DNA of 64,000 nucleotides from positions 2,544 to 66,543 of the forward strand of contig JBILBC010000001.1 of assembly GCA_044353885.1 (NCBI GenBank). Reading direction: 5' to 3'. Position 1 is the first letter of the stretch, and each line of letters opens with the position of its first letter. The position numbers were made by a program, and so were the translations under genes. This document shows, piece after piece, positions 34,647-48,568 of the stretch. Source of the DNA: Candidatus Planktophila sp. Lineage in GTDB: Bacteria > Actinomycetota > Actinomycetes > Nanopelagicales > Nanopelagicaceae. The notes below the pieces were generated by a model. The model did no database searches. It had not been told where the DNA came from and saw only the letters and a program-made list of their open reading frames with translations.

Positions 34647-37415
34647 ATGGCAAAAACCTTAAAGACGCTGGTGATTGTTGAGTCCCCTGCGAAAGCACGC
34701 AAAATTGGCGGCTACCTCGGCGATGGTTACATCGTCGAGGCTAGCGTTGGCCATATTCGTGATCTGCCACAGAGAGCAGCTGATATCCCTAAAGAGGTGA
34801 AGAAGCTCGCCTGGTCTAAAGAGGGCGTCGATATTGAAAATGATTTCGCACCTTTATATGTCATCAACCCAGATAAGCGGGCGAAAGTTGCTGAGCTCAA
34901 AGAGTTGATGAAGGGCGCTGATGAGATCCTTCTTGCAACGGATGAGGACCGCGAAGGTGAAGCAATCGCTTGGCACTTAGTTGAAGTACTACAACCAAAG
35001 ATTCCTATTAAGCGCATGGTCTTTAATGAGATTACAGAAGATGCCATCAAGGCAGCGGTTGAAAACACACGAGATCTTGATTACAACCTCATTGATGCAC
35101 AAGAGACTCGTCGCGTATTAGACAGACTCTTTGGTTACCGTCTGTCACCGGTACTGTGGAAGAAAGTAATGCCACGAATTTCAGCAGGGCGCGTGCAATC
35201 TGTTGCAACGCGTCTCATTGTTGAAAAAGAACGCGAACGCATGGCCTTTATCTCATCCTCTTGGTGGGATTTGAATGCAAAGACAGATCTTGGCTTTACC
35301 GCGCGCTTATTGTCAGTAGATGGCAAGAAAGTAGCCTCCACTGCGGACTTTGGAGCAGATGGGGCAGTTAAAGAGAAGTCCCTCAAAGACATCTTGTTAT
35401 TAGATGAAAAACAAGCAAGAGCGCTTACTGAGAGTTTAAAGAACACACCACTAACTGTGAAGTCGATGGAGGAATCCCCTCGCACAGAGCGTCCAAAGCC
35501 ACCTTTTACAACGTCCACAATGCAGCAAGATGCTGGTTCAAGACTTGGGTGGGGCGCGCAGATCACGATGCGTATTGCACAGCGCCTCTATGAAAACGGT
35601 TACATCACCTATATGCGTACTGACTCCATCAACTTATCTGAGCAGGCAATCAAGGCAGCGCGCCAAGCAGCATCTTCCCTCTATGGAAAAGATCATGTCT
35701 ATGAGAGTGCACGTGTTTACCAAGGAAAGTCAAAGAATGCGCAAGAAGCACATGAAGCAATTCGCCCAGCAGGAGATGTCTTTAAGACTCCAGGTGAGTT
35801 AGCGCCAGAGCTCTCTCGAGATGAGTTCGCACTCTTTGACCTCATCTGGAAGCGCACCGTTGCTTCCCAAATGGCTGATGCCAAGAAGATGCAGATGCGC
35901 GTGGACTTTGATGCAAAGACTGCAGATAAGAAAGAGACAATCTTTCGTGCTAACGGTTCTGTGATTATCTTCCCAGGATTCTTGGCCGCCTACGATGACA
36001 TTGCAACGGATGAGAATAAAGATGAAGAATCTGAGGATCGACGATTGCCTGCAATGACTATCGGTCAATCAGTAAAGGTTGATGAGTACTCATGCGAAGG
36101 CCATGAGACTAAGCCTCCTGCGCGCTATACCGAACCAACCCTTGTTAAGAAGTTAGAAGAGCTCGGTATCGGTCGCCCATCAACATTTGCATCCATCATT
36201 CAAACGATTCAAGATCGTGGTTATGTTTCAAAGCGCGGGCGCGCACTAGTTCCAACCTTCCTGGCATTTTCAGTAACAGGCTTACTTGAAACCCACTTCA
36301 CCAAGCTTGTGGACTATGACTTCACAGCATCGATGGAAGAGGACTTAGACAAGATTGCAGCGGGGGAAGCTGGACGTGTCGATTGGCTCCGTGATTTCTA
36401 CTACGGCGTTGATGGTCAACCAGGGCTAAACGAACTATCTCTTGACCTCGGTGTGATTGATGCGAGAGCCACAAACACAATGAATTTATCTGACACGATT
36501 GAAATTCGTGTTGGTCGCTACGGTGCGTACTTACAAGAGAACTTACCGGATGTAGATCGCAAGCTTGCAAATATCCCTGAAGGTTTGGCACCGGATGAGT
36601 TAACACTTGCAAAGGCGATCGAACTACTTGCTGCCCCATCAGGGGAACGCGAACTCGGAGTGGATCCCAAGACAAACTTTGAAGTTGTTGCAAAGTCAGG
36701 ACGCTTTGGTCCATACATCACTGAGATCTTTCCTGAAGAGCCAGTTGAACTCAATGACAAGGGCGAGGTAAAGAAGAAGCGCAAGAAGAAAGATGCACCG
36801 AAGCCAAAGACGGCATCGCTTCTGTCCACAATGAACCTGGATACCATCACACTCGATGATGCACTTCAACTTCTTTCACTACCTCGCTTACTTGGTACCA
36901 ACACTGCAGGAGATGACATCACCGTGCAGAACGGTCGCTATGGTCCCTATCTCAAAGCTGGCGCTGATTCACGCACACTCACATCTGAAGATCAACTCTT
37001 CTCCATCAATCTTGATGAAGCACTTGAGATTTACTCAAAGCCAAAGGAGCGCCGCCGCGGTGTTGCAAAGCCACCACTGAAAGAACTGGGCGCAGATCCT
37101 GGAACTGAAAAACAAGTCATTATTAAGGATGGACGTTTTGGTATGTATGTCACCGATGGTGAAACCAATGCAACGCTTCGTCGTGGTGACACATTAGAGG
37201 CAATGACTCTTGAGCGCGGTCTTGAACTCCTTGCAGGACGCCGTGCGTGGGAGGCCGAGAACGGCCCATCTCCTAAGAAATCACGTAAGAAGGCTGCAAA
37301 GGCAAAGCCGGGCGATACTGCGCCAACTCTGACAAAGAACACAGTGAAGAAGGCTGCAACAAAGAAGAAGGCAGCCAAGAAGGCGTCAGGAAAAGCAAAG
37401 AAGAGCGCAGAGTAG
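34647..37415 (+). CDS. topA: DNA topoisomerase I (actinobacterial type with C-terminal repeats and Lys-rich tail)
   Basis: IVESPAKA, LATDEDREGE, SAGRVQS, ITYMRTDS, AHEAIRP; repeated GRYGPY-like units. Confidence 0.98.
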   Translation: MAKTLKTLVIVESPAKARKIGGYLGDGYIVEASVGHIRDLPQRAADIPKEVKKLAWSKEGVDIENDFAPLYVINPDKRAKVAELKELMKGADEILLATDEDREGEAIAWHLVEVLQPKIPIKRMVFNEITEDAIKAAVENTRDLDYNLIDAQETRRVLDRLFGYRLSPVLWKKVMPRISAGRVQSVATRLIVEKERERMAFISSSWWDLNAKTDLGFTARLLSVDGKKVASTADFGADGAVKEKSLKDILLLDEKQARALTESLKNTPLTVKSMEESPRTERPKPPFTTSTMQQDAGSRLGWGAQITMRIAQRLYENGYITYMRTDSINLSEQAIKAARQAASSLYGKDHVYESARVYQGKSKNAQEAHEAIRPAGDVFKTPGELAPELSRDEFALFDLIWKRTVASQMADAKKMQMRVDFDAKTADKKETIFRANGSVIIFPGFLAAYDDIATDENKDEESEDRRLPAMTIGQSVKVDEYSCEGHETKPPARYTEPTLVKKLEELGIGRPSTFASIIQTIQDRGYVSKRGRALVPTFLAFSVTGLLETHFTKLVDYDFTASMEEDLDKIAAGEAGRVDWLRDFYYGVDGQPGLNELSLDLGVIDARATNTMNLSDTIEIRVGRYGAYLQENLPDVDRKLANIPEGLAPDELTLAKAIELLAAPSGERELGVDPKTNFEVVAKSGRFGPYITEIFPEEPVELNDKGEVKKKRKKKDAPKPKTASLLSTMNLDTITLDDALQLLSLPRLLGTNTAGDDITVQNGRYGPYLKAGADSRTLTSEDQLFSINLDEALEIYSKPKERRRGVAKPPLKELGADPGTEKQVIIKDGRFGMYVTDGETNATLRRGDTLEAMTLERGLELLAGRRAWEAENGPSPKKSRKKAAKAKPGDTAPTLTKNTVKKAATKKKAAKKASGKAKKSAE

Positions 37416-37443: not shown

Positions 37444-38427
37444 ATGTCAGTATTTAAAGACTCGGCAATCTTGATTACTGGAGGCACGGGCTCCCTCGGC
37501 AAAGCCCTGATTGAAGAACTACTCGCCAACTCTGGGGCGCGCAAGATTGCTATTTTCAGTCGAGACGAACTAAAACAACTACAGCTGAAGAATCACTTTA
37601 ACAACGATTCGAGGCTCCGATGGTTCCTTGGAGACATTAGAGATCAACAACGCCTATCAAGAGCAATGCACGGAATTGATTATGTAATTCATGCAGCAGC
37701 ACTCAAACAGGTGGACACCGGTGAATACAACCCAATGGAATTCATCAAAACTAACGTCCTTGGAAGCCAAAATGTGATTGAGGCATCTATCGATGCGAAA
37801 GTGAAGAAAGTGGTCGCTCTTTCGACCGATAAAGCATCATCACCAATTAACCTTTATGGGGCAACCAAATTGACTGCTGACAAATTATTTGTTGCAGCAA
37901 ACAACTACAGCCAAGGGTATGGCACAAGTTTCGCAGTAGTTAGATATGGAAATGTGATGGGAAGTCGCGGCTCTGTAATTCCATATTTTCAAGATTTAGT
38001 TGCTGAAGAAAAACCACTCCCAATTACTGACATCCGCATGACTAGATTTTGGATTAGCCTCGCAGACGCCGTAAAATTCGTACTAGATTCTTTTTCAATC
38101 ATGCAAGGCGGCGAGCTTTATGTACCACGCATCCCAAGTATGAAAATTGTAGATCTCGCACGCGCAATTGGGCCCAAGTCAGAATTAGTTGAAATAGGTA
38201 CTCGCCCGGGTGAAAAGTTACATGAAGAAATGATTTCGGCTGAAGACAGCCCTCGAACAAAACTCATTGACGGAAGTCGTTACGTTGTGTTACCCGTCGT
38301 CGCAGAATGGAACTTTAAAGAGCCTGCAGGTGAATCTCTCCCTGAACGCTTCGCCTACGCCTCAGATACAAATAGCCAGTGGATGACGGTCTCCGATATT
38401 CAGAAATTCATTGCCTCTAATCAGTGA
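37444..38427 (+). CDS. pseB: UDP-N-acetylglucosamine 4,6-dehydratase (inverting), PseB family
   Basis: ITGGTGSLG, HAAALKQV, STDKASSPINLYGATK, VRYGNVMGSRGSV, RPGEKLHE. Confidence 0.92.
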   Translation: MSVFKDSAILITGGTGSLGKALIEELLANSGARKIAIFSRDELKQLQLKNHFNNDSRLRWFLGDIRDQQRLSRAMHGIDYVIHAAALKQVDTGEYNPMEFIKTNVLGSQNVIEASIDAKVKKVVALSTDKASSPINLYGATKLTADKLFVAANNYSQGYGTSFAVVRYGNVMGSRGSVIPYFQDLVAEEKPLPITDIRMTRFWISLADAVKFVLDSFSIMQGGELYVPRIPSMKIVDLARAIGPKSELVEIGTRPGEKLHEEMISAEDSPRTKLIDGSRYVVLPVVAEWNFKEPAGESLPERFAYASDTNSQWMTVSDIQKFIASNQ

Positions 38428-38428
38428 A

Positions 38429-39322
38429 ATGAAAAATGACAAGGTTCTTGTACTCGGAGCAACTGGATTTTTAGGTAGCTATTTTCAAGAGGCATTAGGG
38501 AATCTCGGGATAGGTCATACATCGAGGAACGATAATCCGACAGGAAGAGAATCCGACCAATATATTTCATCGAAACTTGAAACAAAAAATGATGTTGAGA
38601 GACTTCTTGATTCTGTCAACGTCTCCAAAGTTATCAATTGCATTGCATTGAGTGACATTGATCAATGCGAACAAAATCCACAAGCAGCAAGTTGGCTGAA
38701 CACAGAGTTACCGCTGGCCTTATCTAAGAAATGCAAAAGTATTGGGGCCCAATTTATCCATATTTCAACTGATGCAGTGTTTTCAGGTGAGGAGCAGCTA
38801 GCAAAAGAGACAAGTGAGCCCAAGCCAAAATCTGTATACGGGCTCACGAAGTATCTAGGCGAAACAGCTGTATGCAAAGAAGATTCAAGCTCCCTAATTT
38901 GTAGAGTTAATTTTGTGGGATGGAACCCAAGAGGAAAATCGCTTTTTAATTTCTTTTACACAAATCTAAAGGCAAATACTACAGTAACTGGGTTTCAGGA
39001 TATTTTTTTTACACCAATGTATGCAGCGGATACAGTTGCTGCAATCCTGAATCTAGCTATTAGAGGTCAATCAGGTTTATTTCACATCGCCGGAAGTGAA
39101 AGAATTTCTAAATTTGAATTTGGGAGACTTGTGGCAGAGAGAATGAATATGGATCAGTCACTCATCCGAGGAGGCTCCTTCCAAGATTCCCAGTTTGCTG
39201 CCACCCGTACCCCAGACTTAAGTCTTTCAAATGTTAAGATTAAATCTCTTGGGATCGAAATTCCAACTTTAGCCAATGGAATCGAAAGACTCGTGAAGGA
39301 AGTGGAAAGCAAGAATGCCTAA
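38429..39322 (+). CDS. RmlD-like NAD(P)H-dependent 4-keto-sugar-nucleotide reductase
   Basis: VLGATGFLG, HISTDAVFSG, YGLTK, FTPMY, GLFHIAG. ATG 38429 preferred over TTG 38411. Confidence 0.85.
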   Translation: MKNDKVLVLGATGFLGSYFQEALGNLGIGHTSRNDNPTGRESDQYISSKLETKNDVERLLDSVNVSKVINCIALSDIDQCEQNPQAASWLNTELPLALSKKCKSIGAQFIHISTDAVFSGEEQLAKETSEPKPKSVYGLTKYLGETAVCKEDSSSLICRVNFVGWNPRGKSLFNFFYTNLKANTTVTGFQDIFFTPMYAADTVAAILNLAIRGQSGLFHIAGSERISKFEFGRLVAERMNMDQSLIRGGSFQDSQFAATRTPDLSLSNVKIKSLGIEIPTLANGIERLVKEVESKNA

Positions 39323-40385
39323 ACTCAATTTAGATTTCCAAACTTCTGTAAATTCGCCGACCTATTTCATTGCAGATATCGCGGCGAATCATGATGGTTC
39401 CCTGGAGCGGGCTCTCGAGCTCATCAAACTAGCGGCCCAAGCAGGGGCAGATGCGGCTAAGTTTCAGAACTTTAAGGCCGAGACCATAGTCTCGTCCCAA
39501 GGGTTTAAAGATCTTGGGAAGAAAATGACCCATCAAGCGAAATGGGAAAAAGATGTCGTTGAAGTTTATAAAGACGCTGAATTACCGATGGAATGGACTG
39601 AAGCGCTAGTTAATGCCTGTAAAGAGAACAATATTGATTATTTCACTGCTCCTTACGACCTGAAATTTATTCCTTACTTTGCGAACACAATGCCATATTT
39701 CAAGGTTGGTTCCGGTGACATAACCTGGAAAGAGTCTCTTGAATTGATGGCTAGGCAAGGGAAGCCAATTCTTCTTGCAACTGGTGCCAGCGAATTTTGG
39801 GAAGTAGAAAGAGCCGTCCAGTTGATTTCGAAATTTGATGTGCCGATAGTGCTAATGCAATGCAACACGAACTACACCGGCAACGAAGACAACTTTGACC
39901 ATCTAAACCTGCTCGCTCTCAACGAGTTCAAGGATAAATTTCCTCAAGTGATTTTAGGTTTATCAGACCATTCGGTAGGACATGTAGCAGTCCTTGGAGC
40001 TGTGGCACTGGGAGCTCGGGCGATAGAGAAACACTTTACGGATGACACGCAAAGACCTGGCCCAGATCATGGCTTTTCACTTGATCCAATTACCTGGAAA
40101 AAGATGGTTGAAGAGACTCGAATCCTTGAGAGATGTCTTGGAAGTGGACACAAACGAGTTGAGGAGAATGAACTAGAGGCCCGCATTGTGCAACGAAGAG
40201 CCTTGCGGTTTAGTCGAGACATAAAAGCTGGCGAGGTAGTCAATTCAGATGATTTAGTCGCACTTCGACCCTGTCCTATTGACGGTATCGACCCATTTGA
40301 GAAAGAAAATTATGTTGGAAAATCTTTGAATCAAGCTGTTGTGAGAGATCAACTTGCAAGGAAGTCAGATTTTGGCGGCCACTGA
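39315..40385 (+). CDS. Nonulosonic acid synthase (NeuB/PseI/SpsE family) with C-terminal SAF domain
   Basis: IAANHDG, ADAAKFQ, GLSDH, IEKHFT, GPDH, RRAL...DIKAGE. Confidence 0.92.
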   Translation: MPKLNLDFQTSVNSPTYFIADIAANHDGSLERALELIKLAAQAGADAAKFQNFKAETIVSSQGFKDLGKKMTHQAKWEKDVVEVYKDAELPMEWTEALVNACKENNIDYFTAPYDLKFIPYFANTMPYFKVGSGDITWKESLELMARQGKPILLATGASEFWEVERAVQLISKFDVPIVLMQCNTNYTGNEDNFDHLNLLALNEFKDKFPQVILGLSDHSVGHVAVLGAVALGARAIEKHFTDDTQRPGPDHGFSLDPITWKKMVEETRILERCLGSGHKRVEENELEARIVQRRALRFSRDIKAGEVVNSDDLVALRPCPIDGIDPFEKENYVGKSLNQAVVRDQLARKSDFGGH

Positions 40386-41355
40386 AGCCCTCTATATATC
40401 CAAATCTAAATCAACTCACGATGATCGATTTGTCGAAGCTTTGCGCGAGGTTTTAGAACTGAGAGAAATATACCTAGATAAACCCACCTCGAATCAAGCT
40501 GAATTGATTACAGGTGAGCAAAATCTAATTATCGCAAGCCCACTTTCCACAGGAATAAACAGCATTCCTCAGTCCTCGAATGCCACGATTATAGGCATCT
40601 GTATGGCTTACGAGATAAATGAAGAAGCCAAGGAAAAAAATAAGTTCGATGAGATTTACGAGAACATCAATAGGTGTTCTGCCATTGTATGCGATTGCGA
40701 TTACATTGAAAATGAACTTAGAGGTAGGTTTGCATTTGCAGGCGAGATATTGAAAATCGCCTATGGGTGCGACCAGGAAATTTTTCAGAGCGTCCCTTTT
40801 GAAAATCAGGAAAAATTGCGAATAATCTCGACTCGAAATTGGACACCGATACATTCAAATACAACAAGTATTGAAGCTCTCCGAGAACTCCAAGAGGGCA
40901 CCCTAAAATTTGAAGCTAAGTTTTATGGGGTAGGTATCGAATTTACACAAGAACTTAGAGAAAGCGTGAGTTCAGAATTCTCCGACAAAATTCAATTTCT
41001 AGGTAGATTTGTTCAAGAAGATCTTCCAAGTGCCTTCTCGAAATCAGAGATCTATCTTTCTGCCTCCATTAGCGATGGAACTTCAGTGTCTTTATTGGAA
41101 GCAATGGCAGCTGGGCGTTTATGTATCTGTAGAGATTTTCCATCCAACCGAGAATGGATAAAGAACGGAGTAAACGGATTTCTTTTTACAACACCAAGCG
41201 ACCTGGCAGAGATCTTGACTTCAATTTCCCAGCTCTCATTCGAGGAGAAGTCGCTTATCTCAAATGCTTCAAGAGAGTCAGTTCTTACCCGTGGGAATTG
41301 GGAAATCATGAGAACTAACTTAATCAATTTCATTAAAAACTGGATTAAACAATGA
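40354..41355 (+). CDS. GT4-like glycosyltransferase (GT-B fold)
   Basis: SISDGTSVSLLEAMAAG, NGVNGFLF; N-terminal domain atypical; start uncertain. Confidence 0.75.
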   Translation: MQGSQILAATEALYISKSKSTHDDRFVEALREVLELREIYLDKPTSNQAELITGEQNLIIASPLSTGINSIPQSSNATIIGICMAYEINEEAKEKNKFDEIYENINRCSAIVCDCDYIENELRGRFAFAGEILKIAYGCDQEIFQSVPFENQEKLRIISTRNWTPIHSNTTSIEALRELQEGTLKFEAKFYGVGIEFTQELRESVSSEFSDKIQFLGRFVQEDLPSAFSKSEIYLSASISDGTSVSLLEAMAAGRLCICRDFPSNREWIKNGVNGFLFTTPSDLAEILTSISQLSFEEKSLISNASRESVLTRGNWEIMRTNLINFIKNWIKQ

Positions 41356-42197
41356 GACTACTTGTTTTAGGTTGCGCCCAATTTGGCAAGGGGTATGGGT
41401 TCTACGTGAAGACACCACAAATAAGCAGCGGGGAACTTAGCAAGATTTTAGAATTTGCAGCCTCAAATGATGTAAATGAATTGGATTTAGCTCAAAATTA
41501 CGAAGGGGTTGTCGAAAATCTTGCAGAACAAAGTTCCATCGGCGCATTCCAACTAGGGACAAAAATCAAATACAGTCAGTCAAGCGAACTGGAAATTACC
41601 AATCTATTACGCACTAATCTAAAGGCGTTTGGCGTGGGCTACTTTGAAAGCATTCTTATTCATAACTGGGCACAACTCAACAAGGCGGAAAGAAATCAAG
41701 CGCTTGCGTATCTTTCAAATCTACGAACTGAAGGGATAACAAGAAGCATTGGAATATCTGTTTACGAAACCAAGGAACTTCTTGAATTAGATGCGAAAAT
41801 TGATATCGTGCAGGCGCCCTTAAGTTATTTCAACACAAAATTCCTACACGATGAGAATGCTGTTCAACTAAAAAATCAAGGCGTCATATTTGTTGCGCGA
41901 AGCATTTTCCATCAAGGGACATTACTGAATCCCGACGCTCTACCAACAGAATTCACTGCATTTATAGATGAGTTTGAGGATTTTTGTGCAAGACATAATT
42001 ATTCACACTTGCAGGCGGCGCTTTCTGTCTTCGATACACAATCAGTGTTTTCGAAATTGGTGATAGGAGTAGCGGAATGCAACCAATTTGAACAAATTGT
42101 TAAATGTGAATTTGAAGCCCCTAAATCTCTTCAAGCGGAAATCCCATTGCACTTCCCTGATCAGTTATCAGATCCTAGACAATGGGTTGCTAAATGA
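41352..42197 (+). CDS. Aldo/keto reductase
   Basis: LGCAQFG; catalytic-tetrad-like D(LAQN)Y, TK, LIH; SIGISVY, Q.PLS. Confidence 0.88.
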   Translation: MRLLVLGCAQFGKGYGFYVKTPQISSGELSKILEFAASNDVNELDLAQNYEGVVENLAEQSSIGAFQLGTKIKYSQSSELEITNLLRTNLKAFGVGYFESILIHNWAQLNKAERNQALAYLSNLRTEGITRSIGISVYETKELLELDAKIDIVQAPLSYFNTKFLHDENAVQLKNQGVIFVARSIFHQGTLLNPDALPTEFTAFIDEFEDFCARHNYSHLQAALSVFDTQSVFSKLVIGVAECNQFEQIVKCEFEAPKSLQAEIPLHFPDQLSDPRQWVAK

Positions 42198-42955
42198 AAT
42201 TAGCTATATTGCAGGCTCGCATGTCCTCTACTCGCCTGCCTGGAAAAGTCTTACAAGAAATCAATGGGATGCCGATGATTCATTGGCAACTAAAAAGGAT
42301 TTCAAAGGCAAAGTCTTTGAGCGAAGTTGTCGTGGCGACATCGACAGATATTTCTGACGACCCCTTAGTAGAGTTTCTATCTTCCCAAAAAGTATCTTTT
42401 GTTAGAGGTTCTTTGGATAATGTGAAAGAACGTTTTGATCTAGTATTAGACAAGTTCCCCTCACAGTCGTTTATTCGCTTAACCGGCGACTGCCCTCTGG
42501 TTATGCCAGACCTCATTGATGACTTAGTTCATTCTTTCGACGAAGCTGAAGTTGATTACCTTTCAAATACGATTGACCCGACCTATCCGGATGGGCTAGA
42601 TATCGAGGTTGTCGCGACTAAGGCTTTCAATCAACTCGGGATTGGCGGTTTATCTAGAGCTGAAATGGAGCATGTCACTTACGGCCTGTATTCGAGAGTT
42701 GGCCAGTTCCGAATTCAAAACTTTGCCAACTCCGAAGATTTGAGCCACCTAAGGTGGACTGTTGACTACGAAGAGGATCTTGATTTTGTGCGGCAGGTAT
42801 TTGCACACTTCAAAGGCCGAGAAACCTCTTTTACGTACCCTGAACTCCTAAATTACTTGATAGATAATCCTGAGCTCAAGAGTAGAATCGACGGCAGCAG
42901 GCGCAATGAATCCCTCACCTCAATGCTAAAGGAAGGAGATTCTCTCAATGAGTAG
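42194..42955 (+). CDS. SpsF-like cytidylyltransferase (CTP_transf_3 family)
   Basis: ILQARMSSTRLPGKVL, RGSLDNV..RF, RLTGDCPL, YPDGLDIEV, EHVT, RWTVDYEED. Confidence 0.87.
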   Translation: MKLAILQARMSSTRLPGKVLQEINGMPMIHWQLKRISKAKSLSEVVVATSTDISDDPLVEFLSSQKVSFVRGSLDNVKERFDLVLDKFPSQSFIRLTGDCPLVMPDLIDDLVHSFDEAEVDYLSNTIDPTYPDGLDIEVVATKAFNQLGIGGLSRAEMEHVTYGLYSRVGQFRIQNFANSEDLSHLRWTVDYEEDLDFVRQVFAHFKGRETSFTYPELLNYLIDNPELKSRIDGSRRNESLTSMLKEGDSLNE

Positions 42956-44234
42956 ATACTCTAAATCTGAAAAACAGCTGTTAGCAGCAGAGGCAGTTAT
43001 TCCTTTAGGTTCGCAAACTTTTAGTAAGTCCAGAACTCAGTACCCAGTCGGAATTTCCCCCCTGTTTGCAAAAAAAGCAAAAGGTTCACGGATTCAAGAC
43101 CTCGATGGCAATTGGTATGTAGATCTAGTAAATAGTCTTGCTGCCATCACGATTGGATACGGGGATAGAGAGATAGCCAAAGCTGTTAGAGGGCAACTTT
43201 CCAATGGAATCATTTTTTCACTTCCAGGTACGCTGGAAGAAGAAGTTGCATCTTTGATTGTGGAACTTGTTCCATCTGCAGAGTCGGTTCGGTTTGGAAA
43301 GAATGGGACTGATGCGACATCCGCAGCCGTCAGGCTGTCACGTGCCTATACCGGCCGGGACTTAATTGCCGTCTGTGGTTATCACGGCTGGCAAGACTGG
43401 TACATCGGATCAACCTCACGCGATAAAGGCGTCCCAGATTTAACAAAATCTTTAACAAAAAGCTTCAAATTCAACGATATCTCCAGCCTGAAACAACTAA
43501 TTTCAGAATTTCCACAACAATTTGCTGCTGTTGTTATGGAACCGATGAATCTTAATTACCCCGCTGAAAATTTCTTAGGAGACGTACGAAGAATTTGTAA
43601 CGAAAACGGAATAGTGCTCGTTTTTGACGAAACAATTACTGGATTTAGATTTTCTAGAGGGGGCGCCCAAGAGCTATTTGGAGTTACACCCGACCTGTCT
43701 ACTTTTGGGAAAGGGTTAGCAAACGGCTATCCACTTTCCGCGATTGTAGGTAAGAAAGAAATTATGAAGGAGATGGAGGAAATTTTCTTTTCAGGCACTT
43801 TTGGTGGAGAGCTCCTTTCTCTTGCTGCGGCAAAGGTGGTGCTTGAGAGGCACAAGAGTCAAAATGTCTCATCTGAACTTGATTCCATTGGTAAAAACCT
43901 TAAAGAAAAGGTCGAAGAAATTATTCGGGAATGTGACCTTGAAAATGTTCTCGGCCTTTCAGGACATCCAAGCTGGGTATTCTTAAATTGGTCAGCAGTC
44001 GGAGACTATTCGGTTGAAGAAATAAAGACGTTCTTTATGCAAGAAATGTTCAAGCGTGGAGTCCTTATTCTAAATACCCACAACATCTCACTTGCATTTA
44101 GTAAAAAGGATTTAAAAGTTGTGCTAAAAGCTTATTCTGAAACCTTGCATGCTCTTTCGGAAGCCATTAATTTGCAGAATTTACGTGAAAGACTAGAGGT
44201 TAAGCCTTTGATACCTTTATTTAAGGTTCGGTAA
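42948..44234 (+). CDS. Class III PLP aminotransferase (glutamate-1-semialdehyde aminomutase-like)
   Basis: VRFGKNGTDAT, GYHGWQDW, VFDETITGFR, PLP Lys in STFGKGLANG, SGTFGG. Confidence 0.9.
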   Translation: MSRYSKSEKQLLAAEAVIPLGSQTFSKSRTQYPVGISPLFAKKAKGSRIQDLDGNWYVDLVNSLAAITIGYGDREIAKAVRGQLSNGIIFSLPGTLEEEVASLIVELVPSAESVRFGKNGTDATSAAVRLSRAYTGRDLIAVCGYHGWQDWYIGSTSRDKGVPDLTKSLTKSFKFNDISSLKQLISEFPQQFAAVVMEPMNLNYPAENFLGDVRRICNENGIVLVFDETITGFRFSRGGAQELFGVTPDLSTFGKGLANGYPLSAIVGKKEIMKEMEEIFFSGTFGGELLSLAAAKVVLERHKSQNVSSELDSIGKNLKEKVEEIIRECDLENVLGLSGHPSWVFLNWSAVGDYSVEEIKTFFMQEMFKRGVLILNTHNISLAFSKKDLKVVLKAYSETLHALSEAINLQNLRERLEVKPLIPLFKVR

Positions 44235-44261
44235 GTAACTTAAAGGCACTAGAATTCACAC

Positions 44262-45230
44262 ATGACCCAAGAGACGTGGCTACTTACAGGCGGTGCTGGA
44301 TATATCGGCACACATATTGCCGATGAGTTCATCCGCGCAGGCAAGTCAGTTGTTATCTATGACTCGCTCTATCAGGGCCTTGAATCCCGCATCGTCTATC
44401 TACGTGCTAAGCACAAGGTAGAGATCCCATTTATCAAGGGCGATATCCGCGATTACAACGAACTTGAAAGCGTAATCCGCACCCACAAAATTGATGGCAT
44501 CGTCCACACCGCAGCCCTTAAGGCTGTCGGTGAATCAATGGAGAAGTCAGATGAGTATTTCCAAGTAAATTTAGAGGCAACAACAGAACTGATTGCCATT
44601 GCAAAGCGCAACAATGTAAAGAAATTTATCTTCTCATCAACCGCTGCTGTCTATGGCAGTCCAGATTCAATGGATCCTTGCAAAGAGGATGGACCAAAGG
44701 CTCCAATCTCTCCTTATGGGGATTCTAAGTACCAAGCAGAGTCGGCGGTTACGGCATTTATCAATACAGCCGGTAACCATGGAACATCACTGCGTTTCTT
44801 CAACGTTGTAGGAGCTGCTGCCCCAGAACTACTTGATAACTCAGTGGAGAACTTAGTTCCTATTGTTCTTGGCAAGCTCAATAAAGGTGAAGCACCAACA
44901 ATCTTCGGTACCGATTACCCAACACCTGATGGCACATGTGTCCGTGACTACGTTGATGTTCGCGATATCGCCCGAGCACATCTGGCTGTAGCAGATGCCA
45001 CAACAAAATTGCCTGAGACCATGAATATCGGCACAGGGCGTGGTGCATCAGTGCGAGAGATCATCAAGCTTGTATTGGATGCAACTAAGAAGAGCGATAC
45101 CAAGGTCATTGAGGTAGAGCGCCGTGCAGGAGATCCAGCATTCTTGTGTGCGGATGTAACCCTGGCAAAGAGCGCCATGGGCTTTGAATCTAAGTACTCA
45201 TTGGAAGCCAGCGTCAGAAGCCTCTTTTAG
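44262..45230 (+). CDS. galE: UDP-glucose 4-epimerase
   Basis: TGGAGYIGTH, ALKAVGES, SSTAAVYG, YGDSK, GTDYPTPDGTCVRDY, RRAGD. Confidence 0.92.
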   Translation: MTQETWLLTGGAGYIGTHIADEFIRAGKSVVIYDSLYQGLESRIVYLRAKHKVEIPFIKGDIRDYNELESVIRTHKIDGIVHTAALKAVGESMEKSDEYFQVNLEATTELIAIAKRNNVKKFIFSSTAAVYGSPDSMDPCKEDGPKAPISPYGDSKYQAESAVTAFINTAGNHGTSLRFFNVVGAAAPELLDNSVENLVPIVLGKLNKGEAPTIFGTDYPTPDGTCVRDYVDVRDIARAHLAVADATTKLPETMNIGTGRGASVREIIKLVLDATKKSDTKVIEVERRAGDPAFLCADVTLAKSAMGFESKYSLEASVRSLF

Positions 45231-45259: not shown

Positions 45260-45274
45260 TAGACTCAACCCATG
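45260..45274 (+). repeat. Right copy of the imperfect direct repeat (also the -10 element and ATG of MFS-tmk)
   Basis: TAGACTCAACCCATG, 13/15 identical to 37413-37427. Confidence 0.55.
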
Positions 45275-47410
45275 CCTGCAAGCCTGCCAACCCCTGCTGC
45301 ACCCGCACAGGATGCACGCCGCAGCGTCCTTGCTATCCCAGCCTTTCGCAAGCTCTGGAACTCCATGCTCTTCTCATCCCTTGGTGATTGGCTAGGCCTT
45401 CTTGCAACTACGGCGCTCGCACAGCAACTCTCTGGTGGCTCCTATGCAACTGCAAACTTTGCAATCGCTGGTGTCTTTATTGCACGCCTTCTACCTGCAG
45501 TCTTTCTAGGTCCTATTGCTGGTGTGATCGCAGATCGCTTTGATCGCAGGCGTTTGATGGTCTCAGTAGATGTGATGAGAGCTGGGCTCTATATATCTAT
45601 TCCAATCGTTCACACATATTTCTGGCTCTATACAGCGATGATCTTGGTTGAGTGCCTCACTCTCTTCTGGTCACCGGCTAAAGAGGCATCAGTTCCTAAT
45701 CTTGTCCCAAGGGACAAGTTAGAGAACGCAAATCAAGTCTCACTTCTAGCTGCCTATGGCACAGCGCCTATCGCTGCAATCTTGTTCTCACTGCTCACAC
45801 TTCTCTCAGGAGCAATTGCAGCAGTGAGTCCACTGCTGCCAAGTAACTCTGTCGATATTGCCCTCTATATCAACGCACTCTCATTCCTCTTTGCTGCTTG
45901 GACCATTAGGGGTCTTAAAGAGATACCAAAGGGTGCTGCGTCTAAATCTCATAAAGATGAGAACGTTGGACAATCACTGATTCAGGGGTGGAAAACTGTC
46001 TCTGAATCAAAAATCATCCGAGGATTGATTATCGGTATGGTCGGTGCATTCTCAGCAGCAGGTGCTGTTATTGGCCTTGCTCGCACATTTGTAGGAGACC
46101 TCGGTGGAGGAGATGCTGCATACGGTGTTCTCTTCGGTTCAGTCTTTACGGGACTTGCAATCGGTATTGCATTTGGCCCCAAGATATTTGCGCAGTTCTC
46201 ACGCCGGCGTCTATTTGGTGCTTCCCTTACAACGTCAGGTGTATTCCTAGTCCTGCTTGCACTGATCTCTAACTTAGTTCTCTCTGTTGTCATCGTTGCA
46301 ATTCTTGGAGCCTTTAGCGGAATTGCTTGGGTTACAGGCTTCACCATGCTTGGTATGGAGGTCCATGATGATGTGCGTGGGCGTACCTTTGCCTTCGTGC
46401 AATCACTGATCCGAATTACTTTGGTGGCTGTCCTTGCTATTGCACCCATCATCGCTGCGACAATCGGTGTGCACAGCTATGAATTTGAAAACATTAAGCT
46501 CAACTACAACGGAGCACAGATCACCATGCTCCTTGCAGGTCTTATTGCAGCTCTCATTGGCTCTATCTCTTATCACCAGATGAAAGATCGCCCCACAGTC
46601 TCTCTATGGTCTGACATCTTGGCTGCGATACAAGGTGAGCTAGGTAGCATCACAGGGGCTCCCACACAAGGAATCTTCATCGCATTTGAAGGTGGCGAAG
46701 GAACAGGCAAGTCAACACAATCTAAGTTGTTACAAAAATGGTTAGAGCAAGAAGGTGAGAGTGTTGTTCTCTCACGAGAACCCGGTGGCACAGACCTCGG
46801 AAAAGATTTAAGGAAGATTCTTCTAGGACATGAGACAGGTGCGATATCACCAAGAGCTGAAGCACTTCTCTATGCAGCAGATCGTGCGCACCACGTCTTC
46901 TCAGTTATTCGCCCAGGACTAGCGGAAGGCAAAGTAGTTATCTCTGATCGCTACTTTGATTCATCTGCTGCCTACCAAGGCGCAGGTCGCGTACTTAATC
47001 CATCAGAGGTTGCACGTATCTCACGATGGGCAACGGAGAGTTTGTATCCAACTCTGACAATCCTTATCGATGTTCCTGCAGAGGTGGGCTTAAGTCGACT
47101 TCAATCACGCGATCGCTTAGAGGCAGAACCAACAGAATTCCACGAACGAGTACGTCAAGAGTTTTTGCAAATTGCCATGATGGATCCAGAGCGCTACTTC
47201 GTTGTCGATGGCACACAATCAGTTGAAGAAATCCACACACAAATCATCGCTCGAGTGGCAGAGCTTCCAGCGCTGAAGCGCAATGCAGAAGGACCACAAC
47301 AGAATAAGTTCCTTAAACCAATTCGCATTGCAACACATGCAGTGACAACAACAGTTACAAGAGCGGCAAAGGCAAGCAAGTCAGCGACAACAAAGAAGAA
47401 AAAGAAGTAA
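45272..47410 (+). CDS. tmk: Fused MFS transporter / thymidylate kinase
   Basis: N-terminal ~430 aa MFS (GVIADRFDRRR) in one frame with dTMP kinase motifs FEGGEGTGKST, REPGGT, DRY, DRLE. Confidence 0.93.
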   Translation: MPASLPTPAAPAQDARRSVLAIPAFRKLWNSMLFSSLGDWLGLLATTALAQQLSGGSYATANFAIAGVFIARLLPAVFLGPIAGVIADRFDRRRLMVSVDVMRAGLYISIPIVHTYFWLYTAMILVECLTLFWSPAKEASVPNLVPRDKLENANQVSLLAAYGTAPIAAILFSLLTLLSGAIAAVSPLLPSNSVDIALYINALSFLFAAWTIRGLKEIPKGAASKSHKDENVGQSLIQGWKTVSESKIIRGLIIGMVGAFSAAGAVIGLARTFVGDLGGGDAAYGVLFGSVFTGLAIGIAFGPKIFAQFSRRRLFGASLTTSGVFLVLLALISNLVLSVVIVAILGAFSGIAWVTGFTMLGMEVHDDVRGRTFAFVQSLIRITLVAVLAIAPIIAATIGVHSYEFENIKLNYNGAQITMLLAGLIAALIGSISYHQMKDRPTVSLWSDILAAIQGELGSITGAPTQGIFIAFEGGEGTGKSTQSKLLQKWLEQEGESVVLSREPGGTDLGKDLRKILLGHETGAISPRAEALLYAADRAHHVFSVIRPGLAEGKVVISDRYFDSSAAYQGAGRVLNPSEVARISRWATESLYPTLTILIDVPAEVGLSRLQSRDRLEAEPTEFHERVRQEFLQIAMMDPERYFVVDGTQSVEEIHTQIIARVAELPALKRNAEGPQQNKFLKPIRIATHAVTTTVTRAAKASKSATTKKKKK

Positions 47411-48568
47411 ATGACTTCAGTCTTTGATGACCTTGTAGGTCAAGAACACATCATTGAAATCTTGCAGGGCGCGGTAGCGGCCTCTCGCACAGGCGAGGAA
47501 TCACAGGAAATGACCCACGCATGGGTCTTTACGGGACCTCCTGGGTCGGGTCGTTCCTCAGCTGCAGTTGCTTTCGCCCAATCGCTCATCTGCCCAAACA
47601 ATGGGTGTGGCACATGCTCTGATTGCAACTCGGCCAAAACCAGTGGACATCCAGATGTTGAAATCATTCGCACCGAAGGTTTATCAATCAAAGTAGAAGA
47701 AGTCCGTGAGCTTCTGACCCGTGTTGCATGGGCACCATCAATGGGCGGATGGCGCGTTGTTGTGATGGAAGATGCTGATCGACTTACCGAATCAGCAGCT
47801 AACGCACTTCTTAAGGCAATTGAAGAACCGGGAACTAGAAAAGTTTGGTTGCTTTGCGCACCGACTCTGCACGATGTATTGCCAACGATTCGTTCACGTT
47901 GTCGCCACCTGCAACTTCGCACACCAAGTCTCGAAGCAGTTACAAAAGTTCTCATTAATCGCGACAACATTGCTCCAGGAATGGCTGACTTCGCAGCCCG
48001 TGTGAGCCAAGGCCATATTGGACGGGCAAAATATTTGGCAACAAATGAAAGTGTCCGAAGCAACCGCAAGCTCATCATGCAGTTGCCGCTTCAGCTCGGC
48101 TCACTTGCGGAAGCATTTCAAGCAGCACAAATACTTGTAGATATAGCAACCACAGAAGCCAACTCATCATCAGATGAACGCGATGAAAATGAAGTCGAGA
48201 AACTTCAAGAAGCTTATGGAAAAGGCGCAACGGGCCGCGGGATGGCAACTGGTGGAGCCAAGGCAGTGAAGGAACTTGAGAAAGAACAGAAATCACGCTC
48301 TACCCGATTGGTCCGCGACTCCATAGATGGTGCGCTCCTTGATATCGCCACCTTCTACCGTGATGTCATGATGGCTCAAGCGGGTAAAACCGAATCTATG
48401 ATCAATACCGATATGCGAGAAGAAATTGAAAGATACGCGCTTTCGCACCCAGAGCACTCAACAATCATGAAATTCAACGCACTTATGGAAGCCCGAACCA
48501 ACCTTGCACGTAATGCCGCTCCGTTGGTCACATGCGAAGCGCTTATGTGTCAATTGGCGCGTAAGTAA
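47411..48568 (+). CDS. holB: DNA polymerase III subunit delta'
   Basis: HAWVFTGPPGSGRS, Zn cluster CPNNGCGTCSDC, ANALLKAIEEP, PTIRSRC. Confidence 0.95.
   Translation: MTSVFDDLVGQEHIIEILQGAVAASRTGEESQEMTHAWVFTGPPGSGRSSAAVAFAQSLICPNNGCGTCSDCNSAKTSGHPDVEIIRTEGLSIKVEEVRELLTRVAWAPSMGGWRVVVMEDADRLTESAANALLKAIEEPGTRKVWLLCAPTLHDVLPTIRSRCRHLQLRTPSLEAVTKVLINRDNIAPGMADFAARVSQGHIGRAKYLATNESVRSNRKLIMQLPLQLGSLAEAFQAAQILVDIATTEANSSSDERDENEVEKLQEAYGKGATGRGMATGGAKAVKELEKEQKSRSTRLVRDSIDGALLDIATFYRDVMMAQAGKTESMINTDMREEIERYALSHPEHSTIMKFNALMEARTNLARNAAPLVTCEALMCQLARK

What the first reader, a model, noticed from the sequence alone, without database searches (positions are those of the whole stretch)
41352..44234. 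AKR plus class III aminotransferase as a possible oxidation/transamination module on the ulosonate
Seen: an AKR with its catalytic tetrad and a GSA-aminomutase-like aminotransferase flank the cytidylyltransferase, with overlapping stop/start codons. Established precedent: Shewanella converts Kdo to 8-amino-Kdo with a dehydrogenase (KdnB) plus a PLP aminotransferase (KdnA). Inference: the pair may install an amine on the finished nine-carbon sugar (e.g. at C8 or C7), a late-amination route distinct from the Pse/Leg pathways.
Basis: inference. Interest (0 to 1): 0.65.

Follow-up and report, generated by a model that had tools for sequence, protein, structure and literature searches.

The report
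Reductase-activase-aminotransferase trio for a sialic-acid-like sugar
Three overlapping genes in a freshwater actinobacterium are one copy of a very widespread, biochemically untested gene trio that probably puts an extra amino group on a sialic-acid-like surface sugar and then activates that sugar for transfer.

Summary
AKR (41352-42197), an SpsF-type cytidylyltransferase (CT, 42194-42955) and a GSA-aminomutase-like class III aminotransferase (AT, 42948-44234) are translationally coupled inside a low-GC, 8-gene nonulosonic-acid island between topA and tmk.

The trio is not special to this genome. Of 60 well-flanked loci from many phyla, 57 have the CT and 56 the AKR beside the AT. The usual order is PseB-PseC-AKR-CT-AT-PseG/H-PseI. 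Natural CT-AT, AKR/CT and AKR-CT-AT (980 aa) fusions exist. Where the AKR is missing, a Gfo/Idh/MocA oxidoreductase takes its place.

The AT is not HemL. It scores below the family cut-off, forms a separate clade, coexists with a true HemL in other genomes, and this genome has no hemB. It is not a PseC substitute either, because it coexists with PseC in 53 of 60 loci.

The closest tested relative is EpaA (a CT+AKR fusion) with EpaB, which act on finished pseudaminic acid at C8. An 8-amino nonulosonate is known from Tenacibaculum. Aeromonas hydrophila AH-1 carries the trio and has an odd-mass (403 Da) Pse-like glycan.

Late oxidation and transamination, most likely at C8, is therefore the best reading. 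It remains untested. KdnA/KdnB is an analogy, not a homology.

The parts
37444..38427 (+). PseB-type inverting UDP-GlcNAc 4,6-dehydratase; first gene of the island
   Evidence: TIGR03589 PseB scores 462.7 bits against a cut-off of 407.75. PF02719 is also matched.
38411..39322 (+). RmlD-like SDR, a probable C4 ketoreductase. It occupies the place that PseC/PseH hold in canonical operons.
   Evidence: PF04321 scores 162 bits. Among well-flanked AT loci, this gene is present without DegT only in L055, L085 and L087.
39315..40385 (+). Divergent NeuB-family nonulosonate synthase
   Evidence: PF03102 scores 223 bits. It falls below both the NeuB cut-off (264 against 400) and the PseI cut-off (227.5 against 340).
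40354..41355 (+). GT4 (GT-B fold) protein: either a glycosyltransferase or a UDP-sugar-releasing enzyme that stands in for PseG
   Evidence: PF00534 and PF13692 are matched. It travels with the RmlD-like gene and NeuB in L055 and L085-L087. Its stop overlaps the AKR start as ATGA.
41352..42197 (+). Aldo-keto reductase of the AKR-CT-AT trio; proposed to oxidise a secondary hydroxyl of the nonulosonate to a ketone
   Evidence: PF00248 is matched. The tetrad D45/Y50/K71/H104 is invariant in 46 of 46 members. The protein is found fused to the CT, and to CT-AT, elsewhere.
42194..42955 (+). SpsF-type (COG1861) cytidylyltransferase; the CMP-nonulosonate synthetase of the island
   Evidence: PF02348 scores 98.5 bits. 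The best PDB match is 6oew. It is the only CTP_transf_3 gene in this genome. Its start overlaps the AKR stop as ATGA.
42948..44234 (+). GSAM-like class III PLP aminotransferase; proposed to aminate the keto-nonulosonate
   Evidence: PF00202 scores 164.8 bits, and all GSAM models score below cut-off. It forms a clade distinct from HemL with 100/99 support. K255, D227 and R29 are conserved. It overlaps the CT by 8 nt and has a ribosome-binding site upstream.
44262..45230 (+). GalE-type extended SDR; last gene of the island. Its role relative to the trio is unknown.
   Evidence: TIGR01179 scores 286 bits against a cut-off of 262. The gene is kept in L085 and L087 but not in L086.

Best explanation
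The AKR, the SpsF-type cytidylyltransferase and the GSAM-like aminotransferase form one functional unit. That unit tailors and activates the nine-carbon 2-keto-3-deoxy sugar acid made by the island's PseB, RmlD-like reductase and NeuB-family synthase.

Proposed steps, with their status:
1. The AKR uses NAD(P)+ to oxidise a secondary hydroxyl of the finished nonulosonate, most likely C8-OH, to a ketone (inferred).
2. The PLP aminotransferase converts that ketone to an amine, which pulls the unfavourable oxidation forward (inferred).
3. The cytidylyltransferase loads the sugar onto CMP, either before or after the tailoring (inferred from family membership and from being the only such enzyme in the genome).
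4. A glycosyltransferase then puts the sugar on a cell-surface polymer (inferred).

In this island the product would be a 5-acetamido-8-amino (7-hydroxy) 9-deoxy-nonulosonate with a free amine, because the island encodes no N-acyltransferase.

Shown here: the three genes are a conserved, often fused module of Pse-type clusters; the AT is neither HemL nor a PseC replacement; the CT is the only candidate CMP-sugar synthetase.
For: 1. Module conservation. The AT family has at least 8000 database relatives at 52-65% identity across phyla. In 60 well-flanked loci the CT is present in 57, the AKR in 56, PseB in 54 and NeuB in 52.
2. Fusions. CT-AT proteins of about 680 aa are numerous. AKR-CT-AT proteins of 980 aa have the domain order AKR 2-267, CT 307-478, AT 590-877. 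GNAT-CT-AT proteins of about 863 aa exist. AKR/CT fusions of about 540 aa lie next to an AT.
3. Non-orthologous displacement. In the three AKR-less Pse operons examined (L030, L045, L084), a Gfo/Idh/MocA oxidoreductase sits directly upstream of the CT. From memory, this family classically pairs with sugar aminotransferases, as in WbpB/WbpE and NtdC/NtdA.
4. Tested relative. EpaA (CTP_transf_3 + AKR) with EpaB converts Pse5Ac7Ac to its 8-epimer, shown by NMR. So CT+AKR proteins act on the finished sugar at C8 (PMC12053666).
5. An 8-amino-3,5,7,8,9-pentadeoxy-manno-nonulosonate exists in Tenacibaculum maritimum (PMC3210612).
6. Aeromonas hydrophila AH-1 belongs to flagellin-glycosylation subgroup IA (suppl. 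Table 1). Subgroup IA has only the AKR and the class III AT as extras in pseBCFGI. Its flagellin carries one Pse-like sugar of 403 Da (oxonium m/z 404), with fragments one unit off the Pse fragments. By the nitrogen rule an odd mass implies an odd number of N atoms. That last step is my inference.
7. The AT keeps the Arg (R29) that aligns with the carboxylate-binding R32 of GSAM, which fits an acidic substrate. It is about 9 residues shorter in the region I recall as the GSAM gating loop.
8. The CT is the only CTP_transf_3 gene in this genome, and in two Gram-positive genomes that carry the trio it is the only strong one.
Against: - No enzyme of the trio has been assayed anywhere that I could find.
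- From memory, AKRs usually work as NADPH-dependent reductases in vivo, so the oxidative direction is an assumption.
- Triamino nonulosonates are very rarely reported although the module is ubiquitous. A Pse-producing Accumulibacter enrichment showed essentially only CMP-Pse5Ac7Ac. Whether that organism has the trio could not be checked.
- The AH-1 mass of 403 Da fits neither 8-amino-Pse5Ac7Ac (315) nor 8-acetamido-Pse5Ac7Ac (357) without further unknown substituents, and the published data are low resolution.
- In Inquilinus the GNAT-AKR-CT-AT unit lies about 270 kb from the only NeuB gene.
Confidence: 0.47

Rival explanations
1. The trio tailors the nonulosonate without adding an amine. The AKR is a stereospecific ketoreductase, as is presumed for EpaA. 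The AT supplies the ketone by deaminating an amine, or acts as a PLP-dependent epimerase. The net result is an epimer or a hydroxyl in place of an amine.
For: EpaA/EpaB give an 8-epimer, not an amine. From memory, AKRs are typically reductases. The class III fold includes epimerases and racemases, which appear in the PDB hit list.
Against: In this island no free amine is available, because there is no PseC and the 5-N is acetylated. A deamination-first order therefore has no substrate, yet the AT is 55-65% identical to those of canonical operons. Replacement of the AKR by Gfo/Idh/MocA enzymes fits a dehydrogenase role. The odd-mass glycan in AH-1 argues for an added N.
Confidence: 0.15
2. The trio makes a separate CMP- or CDP-activated small substituent, such as an amino-alditol phosphate, by the reductase-plus-cytidylyltransferase logic of CDP-ribitol or CDP-glucitol synthases. 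That substituent decorates the glycan, and the nonulosonate is not the trio's substrate.
For: From memory, reductase-cytidylyltransferase fusions are the hallmark of CDP-alditol synthases. In Inquilinus, GNAT-AKR-CT-AT lies far from any NeuB or Pse genes. Relative L086 has a second CTP_transf_3 gene just downstream.
Against: In this genome and in two Gram-positive genomes with complete PseB/C/G/H/I operons, the trio's CT is the only (or only strong) CTP_transf_3 protein, so nothing else could make the CMP-nonulosonate. The module is tied to NeuB in 52 of 60 loci. EpaA, a CT-AKR fusion, demonstrably works on Pse.
Confidence: 0.12
3. In this PseC-less island the class III AT is the missing 4-aminotransferase. 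It acts on the UDP-4-keto sugar made by PseB, so the product is an ordinary 5,7-diamino nonulosonate.
For: The island has no DegT-type aminotransferase. From memory, some class III enzymes aminate sugar ketones and aldehydes; C-6' aminotransferases appear among the PDB hits.
Against: The same AT family coexists with PseC in 53 of 60 loci. It is the RmlD-like reductase that alternates with PseC. The AT is fused to the CMP-synthetase, not to UDP-sugar enzymes. The island has no N-acetyltransferase and no PseG to process a 4-amino UDP-sugar.
Confidence: 0.07
4. The AT is a true glutamate-1-semialdehyde 2,1-aminomutase (HemL) for tetrapyrrole synthesis, as automatic annotation names it.
For: The best family and PDB hits are GSAM. 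Public databases name homologues HemL.
Against: - It scores 263 bits against the hemL cut-off of 527.
- It forms a separate clade with 100/99 support.
- Five of six genomes that carry the trio have a real hemL (589-668 bits) elsewhere, and their trio AT scores 246-278 bits.
- This genome has no hemB/ALAD.
- The gating-loop region is shortened.
Confidence: 0.01

Closest known systems
EpaA/EpaB of Acinetobacter baumannii prophages (Pse5Ac7Ac to 8-epi-Pse5Ac7Ac; PMC12053666)
   Same: EpaA joins the same two Pfam families, CTP_transf_3 and Aldo_ket_red, that are adjacent here and fused in many relatives. It acts on the finished pseudaminic acid at C8 and supplies its own CMP-activating domain.
   Different: The partner of EpaA is a short-chain dehydrogenase (EpaB) and the outcome is an epimer. 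Here the partner is a class III aminotransferase. I could not obtain the EpaA sequence, so identity to the window proteins was not measured (one search found nothing in the phage collection).
Aeromonas polar-flagellin glycosylation islands, group I subgroups IA-IE (Forn-Cuni et al. 2021, PMC7874193)
   Same: The gene trio is the same and in the same order ('alpha/keto reductase', pseF, class III aminotransferase) inside a Pse cluster. The genes were noted but left without a function. Strain AH-1 (subgroup IA) carries a 403 Da Pse derivative.
   Different: The Aeromonas islands keep PseC and, in most subgroups, PseG/H, and they glycosylate flagellin. The window island has an RmlD-like reductase and a GT4 instead, in an acI/Nanopelagicaceae actinobacterium whose acceptor for the sugar is unknown.
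   Same: The logic is the same: a dehydrogenase makes a carbonyl on a finished 2-keto-3-deoxy sugar acid, a PLP aminotransferase aminates it, and the sugar is then CMP-activated.
   Different: The enzymes are not homologous. KdnA is a DegT-family enzyme (PDB 5k8b matches a PseC-like protein at 152 bits) and is absent from the class III AT's PDB hits. From memory, KdnB is an Fe-dependent alcohol dehydrogenase, not an AKR. The sugar there has eight carbons and the alcohol is primary.
SpsF of Bacillus subtilis and PDB 6oew (Leptospira 'cytidylyltransferase'): COG1861-type CMP-nonulosonate synthetases
   Same: The CT matches 6oew over residues 5-228 (100 bits, E = 1.7e-27) and carries the N-terminal ARxxSxRLPxK motif.
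   Different: From memory, SpsF works without AKR or AT partners. The canonical PseF model (TIGR03584) is barely matched, at 23 bits against a cut-off of 206.
Glutamate-1-semialdehyde 2,1-aminomutase (HemL)
   Same: The fold is the same, and the PLP lysine, aspartate and N-terminal arginine are shared. Identity to the true HemLs found here is 29-37%.
   Different: The AT falls below the family cut-off, forms a separate clade, is shorter in the gating-loop region, has no heme pathway around it in this genome, and coexists with a real HemL in other genomes.

Membership tests
Aldo-keto reductase superfamily (PF00248) | Match to the family profile above the curated cut-off | tested here: met
   57.9 bits against a cut-off of 24, over residues 4-251.
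Aldo-keto reductase superfamily (PF00248) | Catalytic tetrad Asp-Tyr-Lys-His | tested here: met
   D45, Y50, K71 and H104 are each identical in 46 of 46 aligned family members.
Glutamate-1-semialdehyde 2,1-aminomutase (HemL, TIGR00713) | Score above the curated equivalog cut-off | tested here: not met
   263.1 bits against 527.3. PRK06209 scores 374.4 against 486.
Glutamate-1-semialdehyde 2,1-aminomutase (HemL, TIGR00713) | Groups with bona fide HemL in a tree | tested here: not met
   The 29 trio ATs and the 5 true HemLs are separate clades, each with 100/99 support, joined by long branches.
Glutamate-1-semialdehyde 2,1-aminomutase (HemL, TIGR00713) | Tetrapyrrole pathway context (hemB and others) in the genome | tested here: not met
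   There is no ALAD/hemB hit in the 90%-complete genome. No hemL-like hit exceeds the cut-off.
Glutamate-1-semialdehyde 2,1-aminomutase (HemL, TIGR00713) | Full-length active-site gating loop that retains the diamino intermediate | tested here: inconclusive
   The alignment to Synechococcus GSAM shows about 9 fewer residues in the loop region. No structure was examined.
Class III aminotransferase fold (PF00202) | Profile match, plus the PLP Schiff-base lysine and the pyridine-N aspartate | tested here: met
   164.8 bits. K255 (TFGKG) and D227 (FDETITGF) are invariant in the family alignment.
KdnB/KdnA Kdo8N system | The aminotransferase belongs to the KdnA (DegT/AHBA-synthase) family | tested here: not met
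   KdnA (5k8b) matches a DegT protein at 152 bits. It does not appear among the 58 PDB hits of the window AT at E <= 1e-20.
KdnB/KdnA Kdo8N system | The oxidant is an Fe-dependent alcohol dehydrogenase (KdnB) | tested here: not met
   The oxidoreductase here is an AKR. That KdnB belongs to the Fe-ADH family is recalled from memory.
SpsF/COG1861-type CMP-nonulosonate synthetase | CTP_transf_3 profile match and the N-terminal nucleotide-binding motif | tested here: met
   PF02348 scores 98.5 bits. R9, R14, K18 and D99 are conserved in at least 40 of 41 members. The best PDB match is 6oew.
Canonical PseF (TIGR03584) | Score above the equivalog cut-off | tested here: not met
   23.2 bits against 205.7, with only residues 3-50 matched.
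EpaA/EpaB-type C8 tailoring system | A cytidylyltransferase coupled or fused to an AKR | tested here: met
   The two genes are adjacent with an ATGA overlap. Homologues are fused as proteins of about 540-555 aa and 980 aa.
EpaA/EpaB-type C8 tailoring system | An EpaB-like short-chain dehydrogenase (adh_short_C2) partner | tested here: not met
   The partner is a class III aminotransferase. The only nearby SDR is a GalE-type extended SDR.
AKR-CT-AT trio of Pse-type operons (Aeromonas FGI group I type) | Three adjacent co-directional genes in the order AKR, CT, AT | tested here: met
   The same order is seen in most of the 60 loci and within the 980-aa fusion.
AKR-CT-AT trio of Pse-type operons (Aeromonas FGI group I type) | Embedded in a complete PseB/PseC/PseH/PseG/PseI pathway | tested here: not met
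   PseB and a NeuB-family synthase are present. PseC, PseH and PseG are absent, and an RmlD-like SDR and a GT4 take their places.

The most novel reading that the evidence does not exclude
The oxidoreductase + SpsF-type cytidylyltransferase + class III aminotransferase module is the unidentified genetic basis of 8-amino-8-deoxy nonulosonic acids. These sugars would then be a widespread, overlooked class rather than a curiosity of Tenacibaculum. In this acI island, which has no PseC, the module would be the only amination step. The product would be a 5-acetamido-8-amino-7-hydroxy-9-deoxy nonulosonate with a free, positively charged amine, a structure I have not seen described, on the surface of one of the most abundant freshwater bacteria.
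Probability: 0.3. Interest if true: 0.75.

Novelty: new variant of a known kind. Interest (0 to 1): 0.55.

Why it matters
Nonulosonic acids such as pseudaminic and legionaminic acid decorate flagella, capsules and O-antigens. They shape recognition by phages, grazers and immune systems.

The reductase/aminotransferase pair studied here sits in a large share of Pse-type clusters across at least ten phyla, and it has no assigned function. If it installs a third amino group, several things follow:
- Many clusters now annotated as 'pseudaminic acid' would in fact make a different, possibly zwitterionic, sugar.
- The rare 8-amino nonulosonate would gain a genetic marker.
- Unexplained glycan masses, such as 403 Da in Aeromonas hydrophila AH-1, would become interpretable.
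- HemL mis-annotations in thousands of genomes could be corrected.

For acI Actinobacteria the island lies in a strain-variable, low-GC region full of surface-glycan genes. It would add a charge-modifying sugar to the surface chemistry thought to matter for phage and grazer avoidance.

The question can be tested directly with available substrates (Pse5Ac7Ac, CMP-Pse5Ac7Ac).

Tried and rejected
1. HemL function was rejected.
2. A PseC-substitute role is unlikely.
3. I looked for EpaA in the phage collection, using the CT as a tblastn query, in order to measure identity. Only two distant marine or uncultured phage hits came back, and no EpaA.
4. I wanted to test whether Tenacibaculum maritimum, which makes the 8-amino sugar, and Ca. 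Accumulibacter, which makes plain Pse5Ac7Ac, carry the trio. The T. maritimum O-antigen paper mentions only 'aminotransferase, oxidoreductase' in a second locus. This remains undecided.
5. In Inquilinus the only NeuB lies 270 kb from the trio, and no other Pse genes are near it. This was uninformative.
6. Full-text searches for an assigned function found no biochemical study. The Geobacillus and Clostridium flagellin-glycosylation papers do not mention these genes.
7. The AKR has no PDB relative at E <= 0.001.
9. The extra GNAT that is often fused or adjacent could be the N-acetylase of the new amine. It also travels with WbuX/HisH/HisF amidotransferase genes, so it is not decisive.

Full report
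**What is in the window.**
Eight co-directional genes lie on the + strand between topA (34647-37415) and an MFS-thymidylate-kinase fusion with holB (45272-48568). Their GC content is 41-43%, against 47-49% for the flanking DNA. In order they are:
- PseB (TIGR03589, 463 bits, above cut-off)
- an RmlD-like SDR
- a NeuB-family synthase that falls below both the NeuB and the PseI cut-offs
- a GT4 protein
- the AKR (41352-42197)
- a CTP_transf_3 cytidylyltransferase (CT, 42194-42955)
- a class III aminotransferase (AT, 42948-44234)
- a GalE-type SDR

The junctions were read directly from the sequence. GT4/AKR and AKR/CT overlap as ATGA. CT/AT overlap by 8 nt, with an AAGGAAGGA ribosome-binding site upstream. 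The AKR tetrad is D45/Y50/K71/H104, and each residue is identical in 46 of 46 relatives. The AT has the PLP lysine K255 and D227.

**The trio is a widespread module.**
The AT has more than 8000 database relatives. Most are named 'glutamate-1-semialdehyde aminomutase', and they share 52-65% identity across Proteobacteria, Firmicutes, Acidobacteria, Nitrospirota, Elusimicrobia, Leptospirales, Margulisbacteria and others. I mapped gene families onto 87 loci by tblastn. In the 60 loci with at least 6 kb on each side of the AT, the counts are: CT 57, AKR 56, PseB 54, DegT-type PseC 53, NeuB 52, and a PseG-PseH fusion 46. The CT ends within 200 nt of the AT start in 42 loci.

The canonical order is PseB-PseC-AKR-CT-AT-PseG/H-PseI. 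The window belongs to a subclade (with L001-L006 and L068) in which, in L001-L006 as here, the order is NeuB-AKR-CT-AT and PseG is absent. The whole 8-gene island is conserved at the same topA-tmk site in other Nanopelagicaceae, at 74-77% AT identity.

**Evidence that the three proteins work on one metabolite.**
A search with a concatenated CT+AT query returned several kinds of natural fusion:
- dozens of CT-AT proteins of about 680 aa
- five AKR-CT-AT proteins of 980 aa, with the domains in the same order as the genes here (AKR 2-267, CT 307-478, AT 590-877)
- GNAT-CT-AT proteins of about 863 aa

A 980-aa fusion sits exactly where the three separate genes sit in a canonical Pse operon. AKR/CT fusions of about 540-555 aa are also common, and they lie beside an AT.

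Of the four AKR-less loci, L054 has only a CT-AT fusion with no Pse genes nearby. In the other three (L030, L045, L084) a Gfo/Idh/MocA oxidoreductase occupies the slot directly upstream of the CT. What is conserved, then, is 'an NAD(P) oxidoreductase + CT + AT', not the AKR fold as such.

**What the AT is not.**
It is not HemL, for five reasons:
- It scores 263 bits against a cut-off of 527.
- In a maximum-likelihood tree, 29 trio ATs (including the window's) and five true HemLs form separate clades, each with 100/99 support.
- Five of six other genomes that carry the trio have a real hemL (589-668 bits) elsewhere, while their trio AT scores 246-278 bits.
- This genome has no hemB/ALAD and no hemL-like hit above cut-off.
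- The region that aligns to what I recall as the GSAM gating loop is about 9 residues shorter.

It is not a PseC substitute. It coexists with PseC in 53 of 60 loci. The gene that alternates with PseC is the RmlD-like reductase, in the window, L055, L085 and L087.

It is not a KdnA homologue. KdnA (PDB 5k8b) is a DegT-family enzyme and does not appear among the AT's PDB hits. The Shewanella precedent is therefore analogy only.

**What the CT is.**
It is an SpsF/COG1861-type enzyme whose best PDB match is Leptospira 6oew. It is the only CTP_transf_3 gene in this genome and in Bacillus litorisediminis, and the only strong one in Anoxybacteroides. Both of those genomes have complete Pse operons. 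It must therefore be the CMP-nonulosonate synthetase. This argues against the idea that the trio makes a separate CDP-alditol-like substituent.

**Published anchors.**
- EpaA of A. baumannii prophages is a CTP_transf_3 + AKR fusion. Together with the SDR EpaB it converts Pse5Ac7Ac to 8-epi-Pse5Ac7Ac, as shown by NMR. CT+AKR proteins therefore act after the synthase, at C8, presumably through an 8-keto intermediate. A Vibrio Pse cluster has the same fusion followed by a dehydrogenase.
- Tenacibaculum maritimum O-antigen contains an 8-amino-3,5,7,8,9-pentadeoxy-manno-nonulosonate, so 8-amination occurs in nature.
- Aeromonas flagellin-glycosylation islands of subgroups IA-IE carry exactly this trio, with no function assigned. 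A. hydrophila AH-1 is in subgroup IA. Its flagellin bears a single Pse-like sugar of 403 Da (oxonium m/z 404), with several fragments one mass unit away from Pse fragments. An odd nominal mass implies an odd number of nitrogens. By contrast, Pse5Ac7Ac is 316 Da, and the sugar of strain AH-3, whose group II island is not described as containing the AKR or AT, is 376 Da. This nitrogen-rule reading is my own inference from low-resolution data, and 403 Da needs further substituents beyond a simple amino or acetamido group.
- The trio is also listed, unassigned, in the L. pneumophila serogroup 6/12 LPS cluster.

**Mechanism proposed.**
The NeuB-family synthase makes the nine-carbon acid. The AKR oxidises a secondary hydroxyl, most likely at C8. 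The AT aminates the resulting ketone. The AT keeps an Arg (R29) at the position that I recall as the substrate-carboxylate-binding R32 of GSAM, which suits an acidic sugar. The CT makes the CMP-sugar.

Shown: module conservation, the fusions, the exclusion of HemL and PseC roles, and the CT being the sole candidate synthetase. Inferred: the oxidative direction of the AKR, the position attacked, the order relative to CMP activation, and the product.

My confidence is about 0.75 that the module acts on the nonulosonate. It is about 0.47 for the full oxidation/transamination statement, and about 0.3 that the site is C8.

**Weaknesses.**
- I found no assay of any member of the trio.
- AKRs are usually reductases.
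- Triamino nonulosonates are rarely reported despite the module's abundance.
- A Pse-producing Accumulibacter enrichment shows only CMP-Pse5Ac7Ac, and I could not determine whether it has the trio.
- Inquilinus keeps GNAT-AKR-CT-AT far from its only NeuB.
- I could not reach the T. maritimum genome.

**Relation to earlier scan notes.**
After I had found EpaA independently, the scan's notebook showed that other agents had reached the same '8-amino' idea for this trio in other genomes. That is not independent evidence. I used two of their leads and checked both myself: the Aeromonas group I islands and the Gfo/Idh/MocA replacement.

**Verdict.**
The feature is real and correctly described. Its Kdo8N precedent is analogous rather than homologous. 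The module is a widespread, already noticed but unsolved component of Pse-type clusters, not a speciality of this island. What is particular to this island is that the trio sits in a PseC-, PseH- and PseG-less pathway, so the AT would be the only aminating enzyme.

Noticed in passing
window 45272-47410: A single 712-aa ORF fuses an MFS transporter (MFS_3/MFS_1, residues about 20-430) to a complete thymidylate kinase (residues 466-658). The same fusion is present in relatives L085 and L087.
   Followed up: no
L030 6581-9114; L045 4047-6409; L084 5767-8264: In Nitrospirota and Brocadiaceae Pse operons the AKR slot is filled by a B12-binding radical SAM enzyme followed by a Gfo/Idh/MocA oxidoreductase. 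A cobalamin radical-SAM methylase could extend the carbon chain. [quoted passage not shown]
   Followed up: partly
whole genome G000: There is no ALAD/hemB hit and no hemL-like hit above cut-off in the 90%-complete genome. This fits heme auxotrophy, which I recall has been reported for acI Actinobacteria.
   Followed up: partly
L086 10407-14263: A 71%-identical relative of the island lies at a different genomic site. Directly downstream of the trio it carries a second CTP_transf_3 gene, an unassigned ORF, a Gfo/Idh/MocA oxidoreductase and a DegT aminotransferase. This looks like a second oxidoreductase/aminotransferase/activase set.
   Followed up: no
L004 10825-12588; L094 14694-16478; L095 14901-16478: A PF27859 (LIC12162 family) protein of about 525-594 aa follows the NeuB gene directly in L094 and L095, and lies about 7 kb downstream of it in L004. 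It is a candidate nonulosonate transferase or polymerase.
   Followed up: no
L052 7010-11275 and G001:C1:1337930-1338646: In Inquilinus a GNAT-AKR-CT-AT unit sits next to ETF genes, about 270 kb from the genome's only NeuB-family gene. No Pse genes lie near either site.
   Followed up: partly
13 of 60 loci each, e.g. L041 13306-14663: A formyltransferase and a PIG-L/BshB-like deacetylase are each found in 13 of the 60 loci, usually side by side between PseG/H and NeuB. This matches the deacetylase/formyltransferase pair proposed for free-amine and N-formyl nonulosonates in Ca. Kuenenia.
   Followed up: no
window 37444-45230: The island has 41-43% GC against 47-49% in the flanking housekeeping genes. 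It sits at the same topA-tmk junction in other Nanopelagicaceae. This suggests an old horizontally acquired cassette at a fixed site.
   Followed up: partly
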